In this document: positions 32,812 to 64,000 of the stretch, one piece after another | How positions within the stretch are numbered: position 1 is the first letter of the stretch | Layout: each line of letters starts with the position of its first letter | Assembly: GCA_951406725.2 (NCBI GenBank) | Contig: OX597817.1 | Location: forward strand, 125,240,001 to 125,304,000 | Reading direction: 5' to 3' | Source of the DNA: Octopus vulgaris | Taxonomy: Eukaryota | Length of the DNA stretch: 64,000 nt | Notes under the pieces: generated by a model | What the model was told of the DNA's origin: nothing | Database searches by the model: none | What the model saw: only the letters and a program-made list of their open reading frames with translations | Made by a program: the position numbers and the translations under genes

Positions 32812-33134
32812 GATGTACTTGCATAGCAAGTGACCTGATCTGAGATCGTGTGCTGAAACCAAGCAATTGCATTTTGGAAGGTGTTTTTAAGCCATTTAAA
32901 AGCACACAAAAACGTTAGATTCACTTCAACATTTAAATCTAATTTGCCAAAATATTTTCGTCGCTTTGAGACCATGAGCTGATCACTGACAAATTTTGTC
33001 AGTGATCAGGTCGCGGTCTGGTCGCGGTCTCAAAGCAACGAAAATATTTTGGCAAATTAAATTTAAAAGTTGAAGGGAATCTAATAGTTTTTGTGTTTTT
33101 AAATGGCTTACAAACACCTTCCACACTGCAATTG
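32810..33134. mobile_element. fold-back element between (TA)n runs, probably a PLE terminal-repeat derivative
   Basis: Inverted arms 32864-33134 centred on CTGACAAATTTTGTCAG, with an unpaired extension on the left. Confidence 0.6.
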
Positions 33135-33678
33135 TTTATATATATATATATATGCACACCCACACATGCACACGTGCGCAAGCACACACACACACAAGTA
33201 CCATACTATGTAAAAGGGAATTAATGTATATCAACATATACCTTTACTCATTGAAGTGAATGCATGCTTGTGAATATCTATTTATGTGTATATAAATGTG
33301 GGTGCTTGCATGTGTGCATGTATGCATGTGTATTCCAAATTGAAGGCCAGAATTTTGCATCTTGGTCACTGAAACTTTGCTGGGTGTGGTGGAAGGGATC
33401 TTATTCTAAAAAGAAGAACATCACTTATATGGCTTTCAAGTCTTATATTGATATGTTTATATTTGTAGCCATTTTTATTAAACTCATATTAAACCATCTT
33501 CTAAACTGCTTAAATCTATGTTTCCTGAATGAATAAAGATTATCAGCAACTTTTTCAAGCATTTTATCCAAACTATAGAAAATTAATGTATTTGTATTTA
33601 TATTAGTTGACACATACAAGTGCTGAATACTGCTAGTAATTTATGTTTTTCTATCTATAAATAAATAAAGAACTATAT

Positions 33679-34229: not shown

Positions 34230-35195
34230 ATTAGAATGGCACATACTCGCAAAAACAACTTCTAACAACTCTACCAATAGATGATGCGATCTCTGTTTAA
34301 CCAAACGCCTAAAAATTCTAAACAGCTAAACCGCCTCTTCTTAATAGAAAATATGAGAACAGTATTTTTTGTCTACATATAAGCTTCTTTGTCTTTTCCA
34401 GGTATTGGTAAACCCGCTTGACCCAGTACAAATCCTATGCTAGCTTCTTCATCTAAATAATCCCATTTAGCCGGGAACCAGCTAAACTACTTACACGCAA
34501 ATATTCACCTTCCAACCCCCACTCACTTTACACAACACATAATAAATTATTTTACACCTACACACGGTTTCCTCTATTTCTACGAACTTCCTACAACTTT
34601 AAGTCCCAAAGACACTTAAATACCTTACTCACTCCGGACTGAGTAATCCGGATAGAGTTAGCACCCTTTGCCTTATGAGTTAGAGTTATTCCTTTTCTTT
34701 ACCACGCCGGTGAAAAGTCTAGCCAAAATAAACGTGAAAAATAAGCGCTTACTTAAACTTGGGACTACAGATCAAAATAACCTCCACCCTATATCCACTT
34801 CGCAGCAGAATTATCAACTAAGAAATCTACTATATTGTAAGACTCCCCATTCTTTGTCTTTATTCTTGTTACGAATGTATCCCTATGTCTTTCACTCTTC
34901 TTACCTCTACATATGACTCTGCATTCTGATGATGTCTACCGCTATAACTGGTAAACAGAAACGATCGTTAATGTACTATTACTACCACTTTTCTTTATTA
35001 ATTAAATTAACAGCTTACGAGCGCAAACTACCAACTTCTTCCTGTTATTTTCCTCCATTTTCTTCTTGCTTATAATTTAAACTACAGTTTACCCGGTGAA
35101 TTACCTGCTACCTTATACAAGGACTGTACTTACGCAGCTAATCACCAGGAGCGCCTTTGGATTTAACCATCCTTAGAGGTTTTAAAAACCTCTAA

Positions 35196-41135: not shown

Positions 41136-41159
41136 TATTATTGTCATTACTATTATTAT

Positions 41160-41355
41160 TATTATCCTTTCTACTGAAGGCACAAGGCCTAAAATTTGGG
41201 GGGAGGGGAAATAATAATGATAATCCTTTCTACTGAAGGCACAAGGCCTAAAATATTTTGGGTAAGGGGAAATAATAGTGATAATGATAATAATTATTAT
41301 TTCCCCTCCCCCAAAATTTTAGGCCTTGTGCCTTCATAGAAAGGATTATTATTAT
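41160..41355. repeat. two direct and one inverted copy of a ~55-bp SINE-B tail unit
   Basis: ATCCTTTCTACTGAAGGCACAAGGCCTAAAAT twice, then its reverse complement, separated by TAA-like spacers. Confidence 0.85.
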
Positions 41356-41812
41356 TTTTATTTCACAGATCTTTGTTTTGATGCCGATTTTTCCATGATT
41401 AGGGTGATTTTTTTCTTTCTTTGGAACAACTGTTGTGGTTGTGTTAGCTCAGCAGCTCTGATCAGCAAACTTTCAGCTGTGGTAATATCGATCTCTTTTT
41501 TTGTTTTTAAAGAAAAGTATAACTTAGAATATATTACCTAACATATCTTTCCTTTTTTTAAGATAGCCGGGCATTATTTGAGGAATGTTTCATTGTAATT
41601 CCTTGCAGATCAAAGAAATATGTAGAGCCACCTATCAGCTAATGGTAAAAATTGGTTTAGTGTTCAGTAGCTAACCACTCAAACAAGAGAAGGTATAAAT
41701 AAGAGCAAGTTGGTTTATGTACTTTGCTCAGGGGTACAACAAAGCAACACAATACTTGTAAAATGATTTGACACTATGACTGAGAACAGTATTTTGCTAA
41801 GGTTATTTCTAC

Positions 41813-41914
41813 ATTTACATTATTTACATTCAACGGATATTTGTCTTCATCTTGTTTGTTGTTAACAACAAACAAGATGAGGACAAATATCCGTCAAATG
41901 TAAATAATGCAAAT
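41813..41914. repeat. spacerless palindrome made from the PLE terminal repeat seen at 13235-13287
   Basis: ATTTACATT...GGATATTTGTCTTCATCTTGTTTGTTGTT|AACAACAAACAAGATGAGGACAAATATCC...AATGTAAAT. Confidence 0.85.
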
Positions 41915-43672: not shown

Positions 43673-45572
43673 ATATATTTTTCTGTAGTATGAAACATTG
43701 GAATATATCAGCAGACAGTTCTTACACCATTTTGTATATAATCATAGACAGCGATTTAGCTTATTCCAAGTCTGCAGTATTAACAAGTCACAAAAATGAA
43801 ACATTAATGTCTATCGCTCCTGACTAGGACCAGATGTGAGTTATCTCACTTGTGTATGACTTCTAGGCATATTAACATCAGGCACATTGATGAGAATATA
43901 TTCTCTTATACCTATAAAGCGCAGTCTACTCATGAACTAGCAAAACACAAGTATAATTATTATTGTTGTGCACTGCAAATCAATATATGAAGTGCAAAAT
44001 AAAAGGACAATCAGGTCCCATACTTGTATGTAGAATTATACAGAGGGCTATGGTACTATTACAACAACTGAATAAAATGCTGCCTTCTGCTTAAAACCAT
44101 AATATACTTTTGAAATATGACATATCTAAGCTGCTGAAAATAGTACATTACTTACACTCAGCTGTACCACAAATATATTTTGCTAAACATTATTATAGCT
44201 CTAGTTTTTCTTGTTGTTGATATTTTCAACTTACATAGTGTGAAAAGATTGGGTTTTTTTCCCCCACTTGAAACTCATTTTATTCAAGCATTACCAAATA
44301 AAATATTCTTTGGAGTACTTATAAAAGCCTATATTTGCCTGAGGAAATCCTGATACCCAGTGGATAGACAATGGAAGAAGGAGTTTTATTTCAGAAAGTT
44401 TCAAACTTTTATTGACAGACATTACAATTTCACATCCAAAATTTCTAACTTATATAATTATGCAACACAACAATATACTACAATGGTTACAAAATAGCAC
44501 AAATCAAGATATAAGCTTTGTGTGAATGAGGAAGATAAAATGAACAGTTTAGTGAATAATTGAAGAGAATGTACCTAATTTTCAGACAAATCCTTTTAAC
44601 ATGACTTAATGATAATAACAACAGTAGTAGCAACTCTCACATGATTTCAAATATTGTGGCCTGTTCACACAGCAGGTGTGTAAATTTTAAGACTTCCTTC
44701 ATTATAGAAGAAATAGATGGAAGTTTGGGATCTCTCACAGGCTGGAAGAAAAGAATATAGATAGGAGAATTTAGTAAAACTAAGCAACATTTCTTTGCAA
44801 CAGGAAATAATCCATGCAATGACAAAAGAATTTTGTCTTAGTTATGAAAAAAGGAAGTGGATTAAATTTTTCTTCTTAAGTAGTACAGAATGCAATGGGA
44901 GAAATTACCTCAAATTTTAAAAAAATGTTGACATTATCTACTGTATCTTTAAAATTGGTGACAGGCAAAACACAGGCTGAAATTATCAGACATACTTCTG
45001 ACAATATATCTCTGCCTTAAAGAGTTTCAATAAGGGGCACAAGAAACGATAGTCTATGGCAAGATCACATATATGTATAACAATATAGGGCAGTAGGCAA
45101 AGAAGATTTGAAGGAAGATGACATGTGATCAAAAGGCATCACAGTGAACTTGCAAATCCTAATGACCTCTGAATGCTACAATTACCATATTACCATCCTA
45201 GAACCATATCTGATGGAAAAAGAAAAAGAAAATTAAGATTAAGGATTCAGAGTAGAAATCCTAGTTTCAAAAATTTGTTGGAGTAAAACACATCCCAAAG
45301 ATGAATATTTGGAATATTTAGTGAAAACAAGGAAAATGAAAATAACTAAAAAGTAAAACAAACCCCAGTGTCCAGAACATCACCAGCTAAAACCCTGGTG
45401 GTAGTAAAGGAAATATTTTCCAGTACAGTACCACAAACAGTACCAAATACAAGTATCACTTCATTATCATGCATAAAGGATTAAATAATGGTTACATTTG
45501 ACAATCTATGAGGTGTCAGAGATCAACAGGAAAGGGAAAAGAAGTTTCAAAACAATTAAAATAAAACAACAA

Positions 45573-45656
45573 AAGGTGAAGCACAATTGTTTTGAAGAAA
45601 TTTTTCCTTTTCTCGGGAAAAGGAAAAATTTCTTCAAAACAATTGTGCTTCACCTT
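45573..45656. repeat. perfect hairpin with 40-bp arms and a 4-nt loop
   Basis: AAGGTGAAGCACAATTGTTTTGAAGAAATTTTTCCTTTTC-TCGG-exact reverse complement. Confidence 0.95.
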
Positions 45657-46281
45657 AGGGTTTTATTGATGAAAATGAAGAGGACAAAGCATAACTAAGA
45701 TTCAGCATCCTTTGAAAGTTAAACACAACGGAGAGACAAAATTATGCATCTGTTGTGTTATGTACTTTAGAAATTAAAATGATACAAAAAGATTTAGGTT
45801 CAGAATATAAGCCACATACAAAAGATAAACTACTTAAAACCCATAATGAATTTTAATATCAAACCCTAAAAATGTTGTAGTTCTTCAACACCAAGTATCT
45901 CAAAACATGCTTACCTGTGCATTTAGTTGCACTTGTAAGCAATTTGAAAATCAGTTATTGAGTGGGGCTGGGAGTACCCAAACACATCATAACCAGTAGT
46001 GAAATTTGATTGATGTTTGATTTTGAAATATGGTGGAAATTTATGTGGAGATCTGTCTTTTATGTCTGTGTGGCTGAGTGTGCTTGTATGTGTTTGTCTG
46101 TATTTCACAGATACCATTTAAAAATGGTTTCATTATTTATGTCCTGTACTTTAGTGGTTCAACAAACAGATGCTTAACAAAATAAGTATCAAACTTAAAA
46201 GTAAGGTGGCGATGTTCCAGCATGGCCACAGCCCAGTGACTGAAACAAAATAGCAGGATTAAAAAAATACTGTTCAAAATC

Positions 46282-60144: not shown

Positions 60145-60581
60145 TATATAAGAATTTTTTGCATAATAAGATAAAAAAAACAAGGCTATGTCGATATTAG
60201 AGCATTTATAGACAGATGGTCTTACACCTGTTTCTAGGATATTTATTAATTATATCCCTTTATCGGGATATTAATTATATCCCTTCATCTAAACTAACTA
60301 CGACTTAACTATCCTCTCACACTGTGTCTGATGAAGGGATATAATTAATAAATATCCTAGAAACAGCTGTAAGACCTGCTATCTATAAATGCTCTAATAT
60401 CTACACAGCCTTAGTTTTTAATCTTATTACGCAAAAAATTCTTATATACACACGCTGACATAGAACCAACATTGAACCCTTTTTTCGCAGAATTACCAAA
60501 TCTGGAACTTAACTATGGTCTGTCTATAGCACTTATTCAGCATTAACTGACACCTTGGGATCTCAATGACACCATTATCTC

Positions 60582-60583
<2 letters not shown>
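60145..60583. mobile_element. fold-back element with HHR core, between (TA)n runs
   Basis: Inverted arms 60145-60448 plus a right extension to 60583. Plus-strand CTGATGA AGGGATAT..ATATCCTA GAAA CAGCTG TA at 60328-60371. Confidence 0.7.
60323..60376 (+). ncRNA. hammerhead ribozyme-like motif
   Basis: Intact CTGATGA and GAAA cores, stem II GGGATAT/ATATCCT, palindromic stem III ACAGCTGT, GTA triplet. Stem I GTGT/AGAC has one mismatch. Confidence 0.55.
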
Positions 60584-60619
<36 letters not shown>

Positions 60620-60624
60620 TGTGC

Positions 60625-61035
60625 GTCAATTCATTACAGCTGTTTCCAACAAATTTGTAAAATTAATTAATGATTACATTATATCATTATAAAAAACATT
60701 TTTCTTCAGATGAATACGTGAACTATACTGTTAAGGATATTTAAAAACATACAAAATCCATGGCGCGTGGATATTTTGTAATTCTACGATTATCACTGAT
60801 TACAGAATGACTTTGCCAAATCAAAACAAATTAAGAAAGACTTTTTAATTTGCTTTTATTTGGTAAACTCATTCTGTGACCAGCGATGATATTCACATGC
60901 CATAGATTTTATGTTTTTAAAAGTCCTTAAGAGTATAGTTTGTGTATTCATCTGAAGAAAAATGTTTGTTATAATGATATAATGTAATCATTACTCAATT
61001 AAAAAATTCGTTGGAAACAGCTGTAATGAATTGAC
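60625..61035. mobile_element. fold-back element with an HHR core in each arm
   Basis: ~200-bp inverted arms. ATTCAT-CTGAAGA...GAAA-CAGCTG-TA-ATGAAT at 60946-61031 (+) and 60715-60629 (-). Confidence 0.7.
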
Positions 61036-61321
61036 CCCGATCTATCATTTGCTATTTATTTATGATTCACCTCTCTCAGAAACTATTTCTTGTGTGTTCT
61101 GAAGTGCACTGTAGACCATATATTTAATACAAGGTGCATTTCTTAATTAGACCAAGGTCTGATAATATACTCAGTTGGGTTCAATTAATTTTTTGCATAA
61201 CCTGAATATCATTCTGCCTGTTCCTCGATACCAATGTTTGTATTTGTCTATAGTTGCTGTGTATGCATTATAATTTCGACAGCTTATCCACCTGAATCTT
61301 AACTTATTATATGTGTGTATA

Positions 61322-61452
61322 GGCACAGACGTGGCTGTGTGGTAAGAAGCCTGCTTCCCAACCACATGGTTCTTTGTTCAGTCCTACAGTGTGGCACCTT
61401 AGGCAAGTGTCTTCTACTATAACCTCAAGCTGGAAACTGAAAGAAGCCTGTC

Positions 61453-61488
<36 letters not shown>

Positions 61489-61710
61489 CATGTTTATGTA
61501 TCAGTGTTTGTTCTCCCACCATCAATTACAGCCAATGTTGGTGTGTTTACATCCCTGTAACTTTGCAGTTCAGCAAAAGAAATCAATAGAATAAGTACTA
61601 GGCTTTCAAAGAATAAATCCAGGAATCGATTTGTTTGACTAAAGGCAGTGCTCCAGTATGGCACCAGTTAAGCGACTGAAACAAATAAAAGTATTCAAGA
61701 ATAAAAGAAT
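61322..61710 (+). mobile_element. SINE family A
   Basis: Family head and tail. Confidence 0.88.
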
Positions 61711-61809
61711 ACACACACACACATATGGGAGACAGATATTCTCCATACAGAATACACTTCGTAGTGCTCAAGAGATTCAAACTTGTGCAGATAGAGGAGT
61801 AAATTTAAA

Positions 61810-62381
61810 GATAAGCAAGTTGATATACAAAAAATATTAAATACATTTAATACAAAAAATTTACATAAGTTTTCATATTAAAGGGTTCCGACTAACACAG
61901 AATAGAAATATCAAGAATTAAAGGGCTTGAATTAGAGTTTTACGAGTCCTCCAACAGCTGTTTCTGGGGGCTTGATGGTCACAAATAATGATTGTAAATT
62001 GAGTCCATCATCAGATATTACCATCCCATCTTCAGGGAAGAATTTTAAATTTTGAGTTGGTGACAGAAAGGAGATTAAAGATGAATGATGTAAAAATTCC
62101 ATCTTTAATCTCCTTTCTGTCAACAACTCAAAATTTAAAATTCTTCTTTGAAGATAGAGGCTGGGAATATCCGATGATGGAATCAATTTACAATCATTAT
62201 TTTGGACCACCAAGCACCCAGAAACAGGTGTTGGACTTGTAAAACTTTTATTCAACCTTTTAATTCCGGATATCATTTCTATTCTGTGTAAATCAGACCT
62301 TTCCATATGTAAACATATGTACATCTTTGTGTTAAATGTATTTCATATTTTTTGTAGTTTATCTTGCCTAACTTGCTTATC
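61810..62381. mobile_element. fold-back element with ~280-bp arms and HHR-like cores
   Basis: Inverted arms GATAAGCAAGTT...AACTTGCTTATC. The minus strand of the left arm reads CTGATGA TGG...CCA GAAA CAGCTG TT. Followed by (TA)n. Confidence 0.65.
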
Positions 62382-62439
<58 letters not shown>

Positions 62440-62867
62440 CTTATTACAAATTTGGGATTTTATCAATAGGACAACCTTATTTTCTGGAGTATACATAGAA
62501 AGTTATATCCAAAATACTAATCTAATAATATAAGCATTTTAAAGCCTACTATAACGTACAATAAAATAAAGTACAATAGAATAAATTAAACATTATTTAA
62601 ACATATTCTAAAAAATATATATACCTTACCTGTTATTAGTCTGTGGGGATAGAAGGTAATATTAATCAACACTACACATGTTTCTGCCCAGGTGGTTTGT
62701 TTTGCCAGGCTATACCTAATACATAAATCCACCAGTTCGTCCTCAGGCTATTTTTCTTCTTCTTATTATTATTATTAACGTATCCAACTTAATCCTACAA
62801 ATTATAAGATATTTTCATAAAAAATTAAGAATAAAATAAATATATATATATAACTTCCTAATATATA

Positions 62868-63279
62868 GGCGCAGGAGTGGCTGTGTGGTAAGTAGCTTGT
62901 CTACCAACCACATGGTTCTGGGTTCAGTCCCACTGCGTGGCACCTTGGGCAAGTGTCTTCTACTATAGCCTCGGGCCGACCAAAGCCTTGTGAGTGGATT
63001 TGGTAGACGGAAACTGAGAGAAGCCCGTCGTATATATGTATATATATATATATATATATATGCGTGTGTGTTTGTGTGTCTGTTTGTCCCCTAGCATTGC
63101 TTGACAACCGATGCAGGTGTGTTTATGTCCCCATTACTTAGCAGTTCGGCAAAAGAGATCGATAGAATAAGTACTGGGCTTACAAAAGAATAAGTCCCGG
63201 GGTCGAGTTGCTCGATTAAAGGCGGTGCTCCAGCATGGCCGCAGTCAAATGACTGAAACAAGTAAAAGAGTAAAGAGTA
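62868..63279 (+). mobile_element. SINE family A, full length, young
   Basis: Best-preserved copy with CpGs intact; GTAAAAGAGTAAAGAGT tail. Confidence 0.92.
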
Positions 63280-63522: not shown

Positions 63523-64000
63523 ATCATCATCATCATCATCGTTTAACGTCCGTTCTCCATGCTAGCATGGGTTGGACGGTTCGACCGGGGATCTGGGAAG
63601 CCAGAAGGCTGCACCAGTCTCCGGTCTTATCTGGCAATGTTTCTACAGCTGGATGCCCTTCCTAACGCCAACCACTCTGTGAGTGTAGTGGGTGCTTTTT
63701 ACGTGCCACCTGCACTGGTGCCAGGCGAGGCTGGCATCGGCCATGGTCGGATTGGTGCATTTTACCTGCCACCTGCACGCAAGCCAGTCGAGGCGGTACT
63801 GGCTTCGGCCACGATTCGGATGGTGCTTTTTACGTGCCACCGACACGGAAGCCAGTCGAGGCGGTGCTGGCATCGGCCACAATTCGGATAGTGCTTTTTA
63901 CATATCTCCAGTCCAGGGGTCCTGGCATCAGCCGGGTGCCAGTCATAGGATTGGTTCAATTTCGATTCCGATTTCACTTGCCCCAACAGGTCTTCGCAAG
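63523..64000 (-). mobile_element. RTE-associated 3' element with ~65-bp internal tandem repeats, running off the window
   Basis: (CAT)n tail, GGATGCCCTTCCTAACGCCAACC, and three-plus units of GGTGCTTTTTACGTGCCACC...GCCAG..GAGG..CTGGC. Confidence 0.8.

What the first reader, a model, noticed from the sequence alone, without database searches (positions are those of the whole stretch)
60145..62381. Three adjacent fold-back elements carrying divergently oriented hammerhead cores
Within 2.3 kb are three long inverted repeats (60145-60448, 60625-61035, 61810-62381) with no obvious similarity to each other outside the core. All share one design: CTGA(T/A)GA...GAAACAGCTGT(A/T) reading outward, the same palindromic stem III, an unpaired extension on one side and adjacent (TA)n or (CA)n. 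Some arm copies are decayed. The parts match PLE biology (HHR-bearing pseudo-LTRs, inverted 5' repeats, microsatellite targeting). Together they suggest non-coding ribozyme-bearing hairpin mini-elements. A transcript from either strand would contain an HHR plus its antisense arm, so cleavage would compete with dsRNA formation (inference).
Basis: partly seen in the sequence, partly recalled or inferred. Interest (0 to 1): 0.75.

Follow-up and report, generated by a model that had tools for sequence, protein, structure and literature searches.

The report
Three head-to-head Penelope retroelement stubs
These three palindromes are the decayed tail ends of three abundant jumping-gene families, each carrying a predicted self-cutting RNA motif and each likely pasted in twice, head to head, during one insertion; this layout is already known for such elements, and these copies likely do not spread as hairpin mini-elements.

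Summary
The three inverted repeats and their outward-reading hammerhead motifs are real. Each belongs to its own repeat family with hundreds to thousands of candidate copies in this genome. Longer copies of all three run upstream into a Hydra-type Penelope-like endonuclease (strong for E1 and E3, one full locus for E2). The fixed-axis mini-element idea fails: 22 distinct axes in 23 E1 palindromes, no arm-specific variants, and the two arms of a copy are closer to each other than to other copies. One locus shows the same layout with RT and endonuclease inside. The layout is published (Arkhipova 2013, Cervera 2014, Craig 2021). Residual interest: the two outer ends almost always pair one short and one long end, which fits priming at both known RT start sites; E1's ribozyme core is mostly U4C; E3 5' ends cluster. 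The scan found this kind, and the end rule, before on other DNA of this genome. Cleavage and transcription are unshown.

The parts
60145..60266 (-). E1 left arm: inverted, tail-less (short-end) copy of the family 3' end; hammerhead broken (G8 to A, stem III palindrome lost, no 5' strand of stem I)
   Evidence: 90% to the long copy in L231
60268..60289 (-). E1 junction: short duplicated piece of the left arm, joined to the right arm at a 4-nt CATC overlap
   Evidence: (D18)
60286..60448 (+). E1 right arm up to the short end; holds the hammerhead
   Evidence: 87% to L231 over arm plus tail
60324..60375 (+). E1 right hammerhead-like motif: core 60328, 7-bp stem II, palindromic stem III, predicted cut after 60371; stem I has one mismatch; family form is U4C
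   Evidence: cleavage untested
60449..60581 (+). E1 tail (long end), on this arm only
60584..60617 (.). (TA)17 tract between the E1 tail end and the E2 left end; likely insertion target
60625..60837 (-). E2 left arm, tail-less; hammerhead core and 6-bp stem I intact (60715-60629)
60842..61035 (+). E2 right arm; hammerhead core and 6-bp stem I intact (60946-61031), stem II weak
61036..61280 (+). E2 tail, on this arm only; end approximate
61318..61710 (+). Very high-copy short repeat (SINE-like, label recalled) between E2 and E3; second copy at 62864-63268
   Evidence: (D5-D7), depth
61725..61805 (-). E3 tail, on the left arm only
61806..62089 (-). E3 left arm; hammerhead with outer core at 62035, long stem II, 5-bp stem I, predicted cut after 61953; core intact
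62096..62385 (+). E3 right arm, tail-less; hammerhead broken (C3 to T at 62148, stem III palindrome lost)
62384..62439 (.). (TA)28 tract between E3 and E4
62440..62866 (-). E4: single-armed stub of a fourth hammerhead-bearing family (core 62746-62673), not in the original finding
   Evidence: 346 candidates; endonuclease upstream in 2 of 11 other loci

Best explanation
The three palindromes are short 3'-end stubs of three different Penelope-like retrotransposon families with Hydra-type endonucleases, each likely formed once, at insertion, as a head-to-head pair. Inferred mechanism: the element's endonuclease cuts both strands of a (TA)n tract; each free end primes reverse transcription on the element RNA, one at the inner start site (short end) and one at the outer start site (long end, adding the tail); both cDNAs stop early and are joined at 0-4 nt overlaps or through short inserted pieces. 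The hammerhead faces outward on both arms because it lies near the 3' end of the element. The copies have since decayed and are likely inert; in a read-through RNA the long hairpin is predicted to bury the ribozyme. Shown: family membership, link to RT/endonuclease, copy-specific axes, one-tail rule. Inferred: two priming events, timing, inertness.
For: Families: 2961, 736 and 1350 first-look candidates for E1, E2, E3. Link to protein: E3 lies downstream of the endonuclease on the same strand in 16 of 30 loci found with the endonuclease; endonuclease upstream on the same strand in 6 of 30 long E1 copies; one locus chains endonuclease, 3' region and E2 in order (L291). L231 holds RT, endonuclease, 3' region, E1 hammerhead and tail on one strand and a 98% identical inverted tail-less copy of about 970 nt on the other. 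Axes: 22 distinct of 23 E1 palindromes; 0 of 116 columns arm-specific; arm distance 0.064 within a copy against 0.094 between copies, 0 of 2000 permutations as low. Samples drawn with the distal end, blind to the axis: E1 8 clear two-armed loci of 29, all with different axes; E3 16 of 29, all different except one duplicated locus pair. One tail only: 22 of 23, 8 of 8 and 14 of 16; chance for 22 of 23 is 3e-6 at best. Partners made of tail alone next to a tail-less arm (L263, L279, L281, L286, L154) cannot be fold-backs of that arm. (TA)n follows 17 of 25 short ends and 9 of 14 long ends. Two RT start sites flanking the tail and extension of both strands are shown in vitro for an anole element (PMC11167929).
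Against: The window's E1 axis recurs within 2 nt in L032 and L038, and two other pairs nearly coincide; these copies carry different subfamily variants and the site has a 4-nt overlap, and the query favoured that axis, but descent from one palindrome is not formally excluded. E3 5' ends cluster 44-52 nt before the core in 10 of 29 axis-blind loci, on both arms in 2 of 16. One E1 locus has two tails (L265), one is undetermined (L051); in E3 one is partial (L304) and one undetermined (L301). The partner arm is the nearest arm in only 9 of 23 copies. The E2 link rests on one full chain at 33-38% protein identity; none of 10 extended E2 loci showed a same-strand endonuclease. Pfam found no family in the endonuclease pieces or in the 806-aa ORF, so the Hydra label rests on motifs compared by eye, not on a tree. 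Some 5' ends carry 20-40 nt fold-backs (L324, L305, L167), which fits self-priming. All samples are the top 30-40 hits of each search, biased to well-preserved copies.
Confidence: 0.9

Rival explanations
1. Same origin (Penelope-like stubs), but the inverted arm is made by self-priming or fold-back on one template, with the tail difference set later by endonuclease resolution, as proposed for rotifer elements.
For: PMC3846280 reads junction palindromes as self-priming on an antisense template; PMC8557442 ascribes the tail to endonuclease resolution. Short fold-backs at 5' ends in L324, L305, L167, L168, L174. Arms of one copy share variants. The short end sits at a TATA stretch that the endonuclease could cut.
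Against: Most junctions are asymmetric by tens to hundreds of bases, and tail-only partners beside tail-less arms cannot be copied from that arm.
Confidence: 0.25
2. One reading: non-coding hairpin mini-elements with fixed axes that move as whole palindromes using Penelope-like enzymes.
For: Three E1 copies share an axis within 2 nt; E3 palindromes found with the palindrome as query mostly have both 5' ends near -44 to -56; L345 holds the same palindrome twice in tandem.
Against: Junction sequences differ copy by copy; no arm-specific columns; 20 of 29 axis-blind E1 loci are single arms and lengths form a ladder up to the ORF; the same layout occurs with coding sequence inside (L231, L131, L132).
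Confidence: 0.04
3. A short non-coding RNA started inside the pLTR (retrozyme-like or run-off template) supplies part of the E3 copies, giving a preferred 5' end and near-uniform palindromes.
For: E3 5' ends at -44 to -52 in 10 of 29 axis-blind loci; non-autonomous pLTR derivatives are reported (bioRxiv 10.64898/2026.07.22.740005).
Against: No head-to-tail monomer arrays at these loci; the cluster is not at the predicted ribozyme cut; E1 ends are broadly spread in the like sample; an RT pause or a favoured joining site explains it as well.
Confidence: 0.2
4. The cluster is a host-selected RNA device (double-stranded RNA source or ribozyme switch).
For: Four hammerhead-bearing stubs lie within 2.7 kb; three arms keep core and stem I.
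Against: Two of six cores are broken, arms are about 10% diverged like other copies, elements abut shared (TA)n tracts, and at an assumed 40-80 such stubs per Mb some 200-1500 three-element clusters are expected genome-wide by chance alone (density is a rough assumption).
Confidence: 0.03

Closest known systems
Hydra-clade Penelope-like elements (Craig et al. 2021, PMC8557442), including Hydra-1_Obim and Penelope-13_HM
   Same: C-terminal endonuclease with CxCX5C linker and CxxC/CxH motifs, hammerhead near the 3' end, (TA)n targets; Penelope-13_HM is listed with a 5'-truncated inverted copy and a hammerhead on both strands; several listed hammerheads have a mismatch where G10.1-C11.1 is usual.
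   Different: These families' hammerheads differ from the one listed for Hydra-1_Obim; tails are about 80-290 nt, not 30-40; 3' regions are long (about 0.7-1.1 kb or more); E1 has CCGAUGA, whereas all Hydra cores in the listed table start ctga.
Inverted pLTR plus one-sided tail of endonuclease-positive Penelope-like elements (Arkhipova et al. 2013, PMC3846280; Craig 2021 Fig. 2 legend)
   Same: Head-to-head inverted truncated copy, tail on one of the inverted arms, microhomology at 5' junctions.
   Different: Here both arms are so short that no ORF is left, and the one-tail pairing is counted over dozens of copies.
Minimal hammerheads of Penelope-like elements (Cervera and De la Pena 2014, PMC4209133)
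   Same: Type I core, palindromic stem III that needs a dimer; pairs of motifs 100-700 bp apart on opposite strands already reported in Schistosoma.
   Different: No G10.1-C11.1 pair in E1-E3; stem II is long in E2 and E3; U4C in E1.
Animal non-LTR retrozymes (bioRxiv 10.64898/2026.07.22.740005)
   Same: Short, non-coding, hammerhead-bearing, related to pLTRs.
   Different: Defined by head-to-tail tandem monomers; these are head-to-head truncations continuous with an ORF-bearing parent.

Membership tests
Endonuclease-positive Penelope-like element | RT plus GIY-YIG-type endonuclease in the parent element | tested here: met
   At family level: L231 and L102 carry RT and endonuclease pieces upstream of E1 and E3; E2 endonuclease only, one chain. 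No such coding sequence in the window itself.
Endonuclease-positive Penelope-like element | Hammerhead motif in the terminal repeat, sense to the ORF | tested here: met
Endonuclease-positive Penelope-like element | Inverted 5'-truncated copy and one-sided tail | tested here: met
Endonuclease-positive Penelope-like element | Partial tandem (direct pLTRs) in full-length copies | tested here: inconclusive
   The tandem hits fetched (L229, L230) were larger duplications without ORF match; no full-length parent of E1-E3 was recovered.
Endonuclease-positive Penelope-like element | Target-site duplication | not tested
   Ends lie in (TA)n tracts.
Hydra clade | CxCX5C linker, CxxC before the conserved E, CxH after the conserved N | tested here: met
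   All three in L231 (E1); in E3 pieces L141, L083, L102 taken together; linker and second motifs in L255/L256 (E2), partly decayed; definition.
Hydra clade | DKT motif and RWK motif at the RT N-terminus | tested here: inconclusive
   DKT seen only in a related younger family (L130); the E1-E3 parents recovered lack this region; RWK not seen.
Hydra clade | (TA)n insertion preference | tested here: met
   17 of 25 short ends and 9 of 14 long ends in E1; window tracts.
Hydra clade | Placement in the RT tree | not tested
   No reference sequences were available to the scripts; motifs compared by eye with the alignment rows.
Minimal type I hammerhead | Core CUGANGA / GAAA / UH with stems I-III | tested here: met
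   Core intact in 4 of 6 arms; stem I intact in 3 of 6. Core columns more conserved than random columns in E1 (P 0.007) and E3 (P 0.006), not E2 (P 0.26); background includes indel-prone runs.
Minimal type I hammerhead | U4 and G10.1-C11.1 | tested here: not met
   E1 has C4 in 118 of 147 arms; none of E1-E3 has G-C at 10.1-11.1. U4C is a known weak natural variant (PMC3088659).
Minimal type I hammerhead | Self-cleavage | not testable with these tools
   No assay; Rfam listed no hammerhead family among the 150 of 223 matches shown.
Non-LTR retrozyme | Head-to-tail tandem monomers without a coding parent | tested here: not met
   Single or head-to-head copies continuous with an ORF.
MITE / fold-back DNA element | Fixed palindromic unit copied as a whole | tested here: not met

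The most novel reading that the evidence does not exclude
Penelope-like elements integrate by obligate two-ended priming: an enzyme dimer uses the inner RT start site on one target strand and the outer site on the other, so inverted repeats and the one-sided tail are two faces of one step. The many thousands of octopus-type stubs are a natural read-out of this rule, and a family with a U4C ribozyme core still reached about ten thousand copies, so full ribozyme activity is not needed for spread.
Probability: 0.5. Interest if true: 0.55.

Novelty: new member of a known kind. Interest (0 to 1): 0.27.

Why it matters
The locus itself is ordinary retroelement debris. Its value is as data on an open question: Craig et al. 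2021 call the origin of the tandem/inverted structures undefined. The near-strict pairing of one short and one long end, with tail-only partners, gives a testable link between those structures and the two RT start sites found in vitro. It also warns that such palindromes can be misfiled as MITEs or microRNA hairpins (the E3 centre scores below threshold against several microRNA models).

Tried and rejected
Rfam: no hammerhead family among the 150 of 223 matches shown; microRNA matches are below their gathering scores. Pfam: no family for two endonuclease pieces and the 806-aa ORF. A home-made profile of ORF pieces gave many low-complexity false matches and was not used beyond its strongest rows. 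First upstream walks found no ORF for E1 or E2; one shared upstream piece of E2 loci proved to be another common repeat. Expression: no RNA holder listed; two runs guessed to be RNA hold only diverged family copies with 4-10 differences per piece shown, so nothing is concluded. Summed contig depth was not used as a copy number. Copy estimates from off-target flanks are rough: E1 4 loci in 0.49 Mb (two are duplicates of each other), E3 1 in 0.65 Mb, E2 0 in 0.78 Mb. Minimum-energy folds of the single arms do not give the full hammerhead fold, as expected for a dimer-dependent motif. The inner E3 core was rejected because it has no stem I partner and is CCGATGA in the family. A paper on dimeric hammerheads of these elements (recalled) is not held and was not used. 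Literature searches; the two papers listed for Penelope + twin priming + inverted were seen as listings only and do not concern this by title; papers outside the library and bioRxiv supplements were not seen, so absence from print of the end rule is not established.

Full report
Setting. The window is G000:C4:125240001-125304000 in a 2.8-Gb genome of 227 contigs. It is AT-rich and full of microsatellites. I take it to be an octopus-type genome from its size, a repeat recognised from memory and the wording of earlier scan notes; this is inference.

Observation. The three inverted repeats are there, and each arm has a hammerhead-like motif reading outward. The pattern is far above chance: 5 matches with a palindromic loop in the window, none in 100 resamples. 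The families resemble each other only at the core. Contigs of public runs cover the E2 centre (359 nt at depth 47 against 53 in the flank; 398 nt at 7.0 against 7.2 in a second run) and the E3 centre (depth 46). So these junctions exist in reads at about single-copy depth; the first run may be the assembly's own source, and both runs belong to one study.

Each palindrome is one copy of a large family. DNA searches gave 2961 (E1), 736 (E2) and 1350 (E3) first-look candidates, of which 40 were scored and 30 loci returned each time. Copies occur as single arms and as head-to-head pairs. All share one of two outer ends: a short end, and a long end that adds a tail. In the window the tails lie at 60449-60581, 61036 to about 61280, and about 61725-61805, one per element.

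The parents are Penelope-like elements. Walking upstream in longer copies reached an endonuclease in all three families. E3: frames in L083 and L087; with that protein as query, 16 of 30 loci have E3 downstream on the same strand within the flank. E1: after two walks, 6 of 30 loci have the endonuclease upstream on the same strand. L231 shows the whole design: RT pieces, endonuclease, about 1 kb of 3' region, hammerhead and tail on one strand, and a 98% identical inverted copy without tail on the other. E2 is older and its link weaker: 2 of 15 loci have the endonuclease before the far-upstream piece, and one of them (L291) continues in order to the E2 hammerhead and tail; 10 other extended loci gave no same-strand endonuclease. 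The motifs (CxCX5C, CxxC before E, CxH) match the description of the Hydra clade (PMC8557442 section 11). A related younger family has an 806-aa open frame with DKT and RT motifs like those printed for Hydra-1_Obim. Pfam recognised none of these proteins and no tree was built, so the clade label rests on motifs. The endonuclease query had 12,554 candidates.

Fixed axis or made at insertion? For 23 distinct E1 palindromes the centre sequences differ copy by copy, with 22 distinct pairs of 5' ends. No column of 116 separates tailed from tail-less arms. The two arms of a copy differ by 0.064, arms of different copies by 0.090-0.097, and none of 2000 random pairings came as low. This is what copying both arms from one element at insertion predicts, and the opposite of descent from a palindromic master. 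Against it: the window's axis recurs within 2 nt in L032 and L038, two more pairs nearly coincide, and the partner is the nearest arm in only 9 of 23. The three copies with the shared axis carry different subfamily variants in both arms, the site has a 4-nt overlap, and the query favoured that axis. To remove that bias I sampled with the distal ends only. E1: 29 distinct loci, 8 clear pairs with 8 different axes, 1 complex, 20 single arms. E3: 29 distinct loci, 16 with an inverted partner, all different except one duplicated locus pair. For E2, 3 of 21 loci had two hammerhead arms, each with its own axis.

The end rule. Exactly one arm has the tail in 22 of 23 E1 palindromes (one undetermined), 8 of 8 axis-blind E1 pairs and 14 of 16 E3 pairs (one partial, one undetermined). 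In the arm-query set 11 of 12 pairs follow it and L265 has two tails; these sets overlap in a few loci. Independent ends would give 22 of 23 with probability 3e-6 at best. Several partners consist of tail sequence alone, next to a tail-less arm (L263, L279, L281, L286, L154), so they were not copied from that arm. Junctions show 0-3 nt overlaps or short inserted pieces. For an anole element, reverse transcription starts at two sites that bound the tail, both target strands are cut and extended, and a dimer is predicted (PMC11167929, parts 1-2 of 4 and passages). I infer that each target strand primes at one of the two sites and the two aborted cDNAs are joined. The published alternative is self-priming (PMC3846280, passages); short fold-backs at some 5' ends fit it.

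The ribozymes. E2 has intact cores and 6-bp stems I on both arms; E3 left is intact with the outer core and a long stem II; E1 right has a stem I mismatch; E1 left and E3 right have broken cores. In E1, 118 of 147 arms read CCGATGA, 27 have T at the second place and 14 have A at the third, like decay at other CpG sites of the family (15/20 and 25/16). So the window's textbook core is likely a decay product of a U4C family, though a minor U4 subfamily is not excluded. U4C lowers activity in vitro but suffices for a viroid (PMC3088659, passage). None of the three has G10.1-C11.1; mismatches there occur in the published Hydra table (supplement part 2 of 59). Core columns are better kept than others in E1 and E3 but not E2; this more likely reflects selection on source elements than on each copy. 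Such minimal motifs cut poorly and only as dimers in vitro (PMC4209133, parts 1-2 of 4), and cutting was not needed for insertion in the anole assay. In a read-through RNA the whole-palindrome hairpin is predicted to dominate. No locus-specific transcript was shown.

Why three together. E1 and E2 share a (TA)17 tract, and E3 shares a (TA)28 tract with a fourth, single-armed stub. Many other hammerhead families turned up in flanks (33 motifs with other palindromic loops in 0.96 Mb). At an assumed 40-80 stubs per Mb, 200-1500 clusters of three are expected genome-wide; shared targets would raise this.

What is known. Inverted truncated copies with a one-sided tail, paired opposite-strand minimal hammerheads 100-700 bp apart, Hydra elements in an octopus and a Hydra element with hammerheads on both strands are all in print. 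Retrozymes are tandem monomers (bioRxiv preprint, parts 1-2 of 5) and do not fit. Earlier notes of this scan reached the same reading on other DNA of this genome, and two mention the end rule; I saw them after my own tests and count them as no support. Verdict: new members of a known kind, low interest for the locus, moderate for the end rule.

Noticed in passing
window 62440-62866 (-): Fourth hammerhead-bearing family, single arm, sharing the (TA)28 tract with E3; 346 candidates; endonuclease upstream in 2 of 11 other loci.
   Followed up: partly
E3 family, L292-L321: 5' ends cluster 44-52 nt before the core in 10 of 29 axis-blind loci: an RNA start, an RT pause or a favoured joining site.
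   Followed up: partly
E1 family, L150-L179: Many 5' ends fall about 330 nt before the core, some with short perfect fold-backs; the query lay just downstream, so this may be sampling bias.
   Followed up: partly
E3 hammerhead, window 62014-62008 (-): An inner CCGATGA-like copy lies inside stem II and resembles the E1 core; possibly a relic of a core duplication.
   Followed up: no
L130:1487-3907 (G000:C5): 806-aa open frame of a young Hydra-type family with an Asn-rich linker and a canonical hammerhead; relatives L131, L132, L134, L138 have 98-99% identical inverted arms; no Pfam match.
   Followed up: partly
L042, L132, L232, L236 flanks: Other hammerhead families also show CCGA-type cores, so U4C may be recurrent in this genome.
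   Followed up: no
window 32861-33137, 41155-41359, 41813-41914, 45560-45667: Four more palindromes without the hammerhead pattern; the first three match repeats found in 5-6 of 248 unrelated loci, the last in none.
   Followed up: partly
window 34926-34969 (+): Lone hammerhead-like motif with a palindromic GATC loop.
   Followed up: no
window 63691-63901: GC-rich 68-nt tandem repeat, 3.2 copies.
   Followed up: no
L345 (G000:C28): The same E1 palindrome occurs twice in tandem, 624 nt apart.
   Followed up: no
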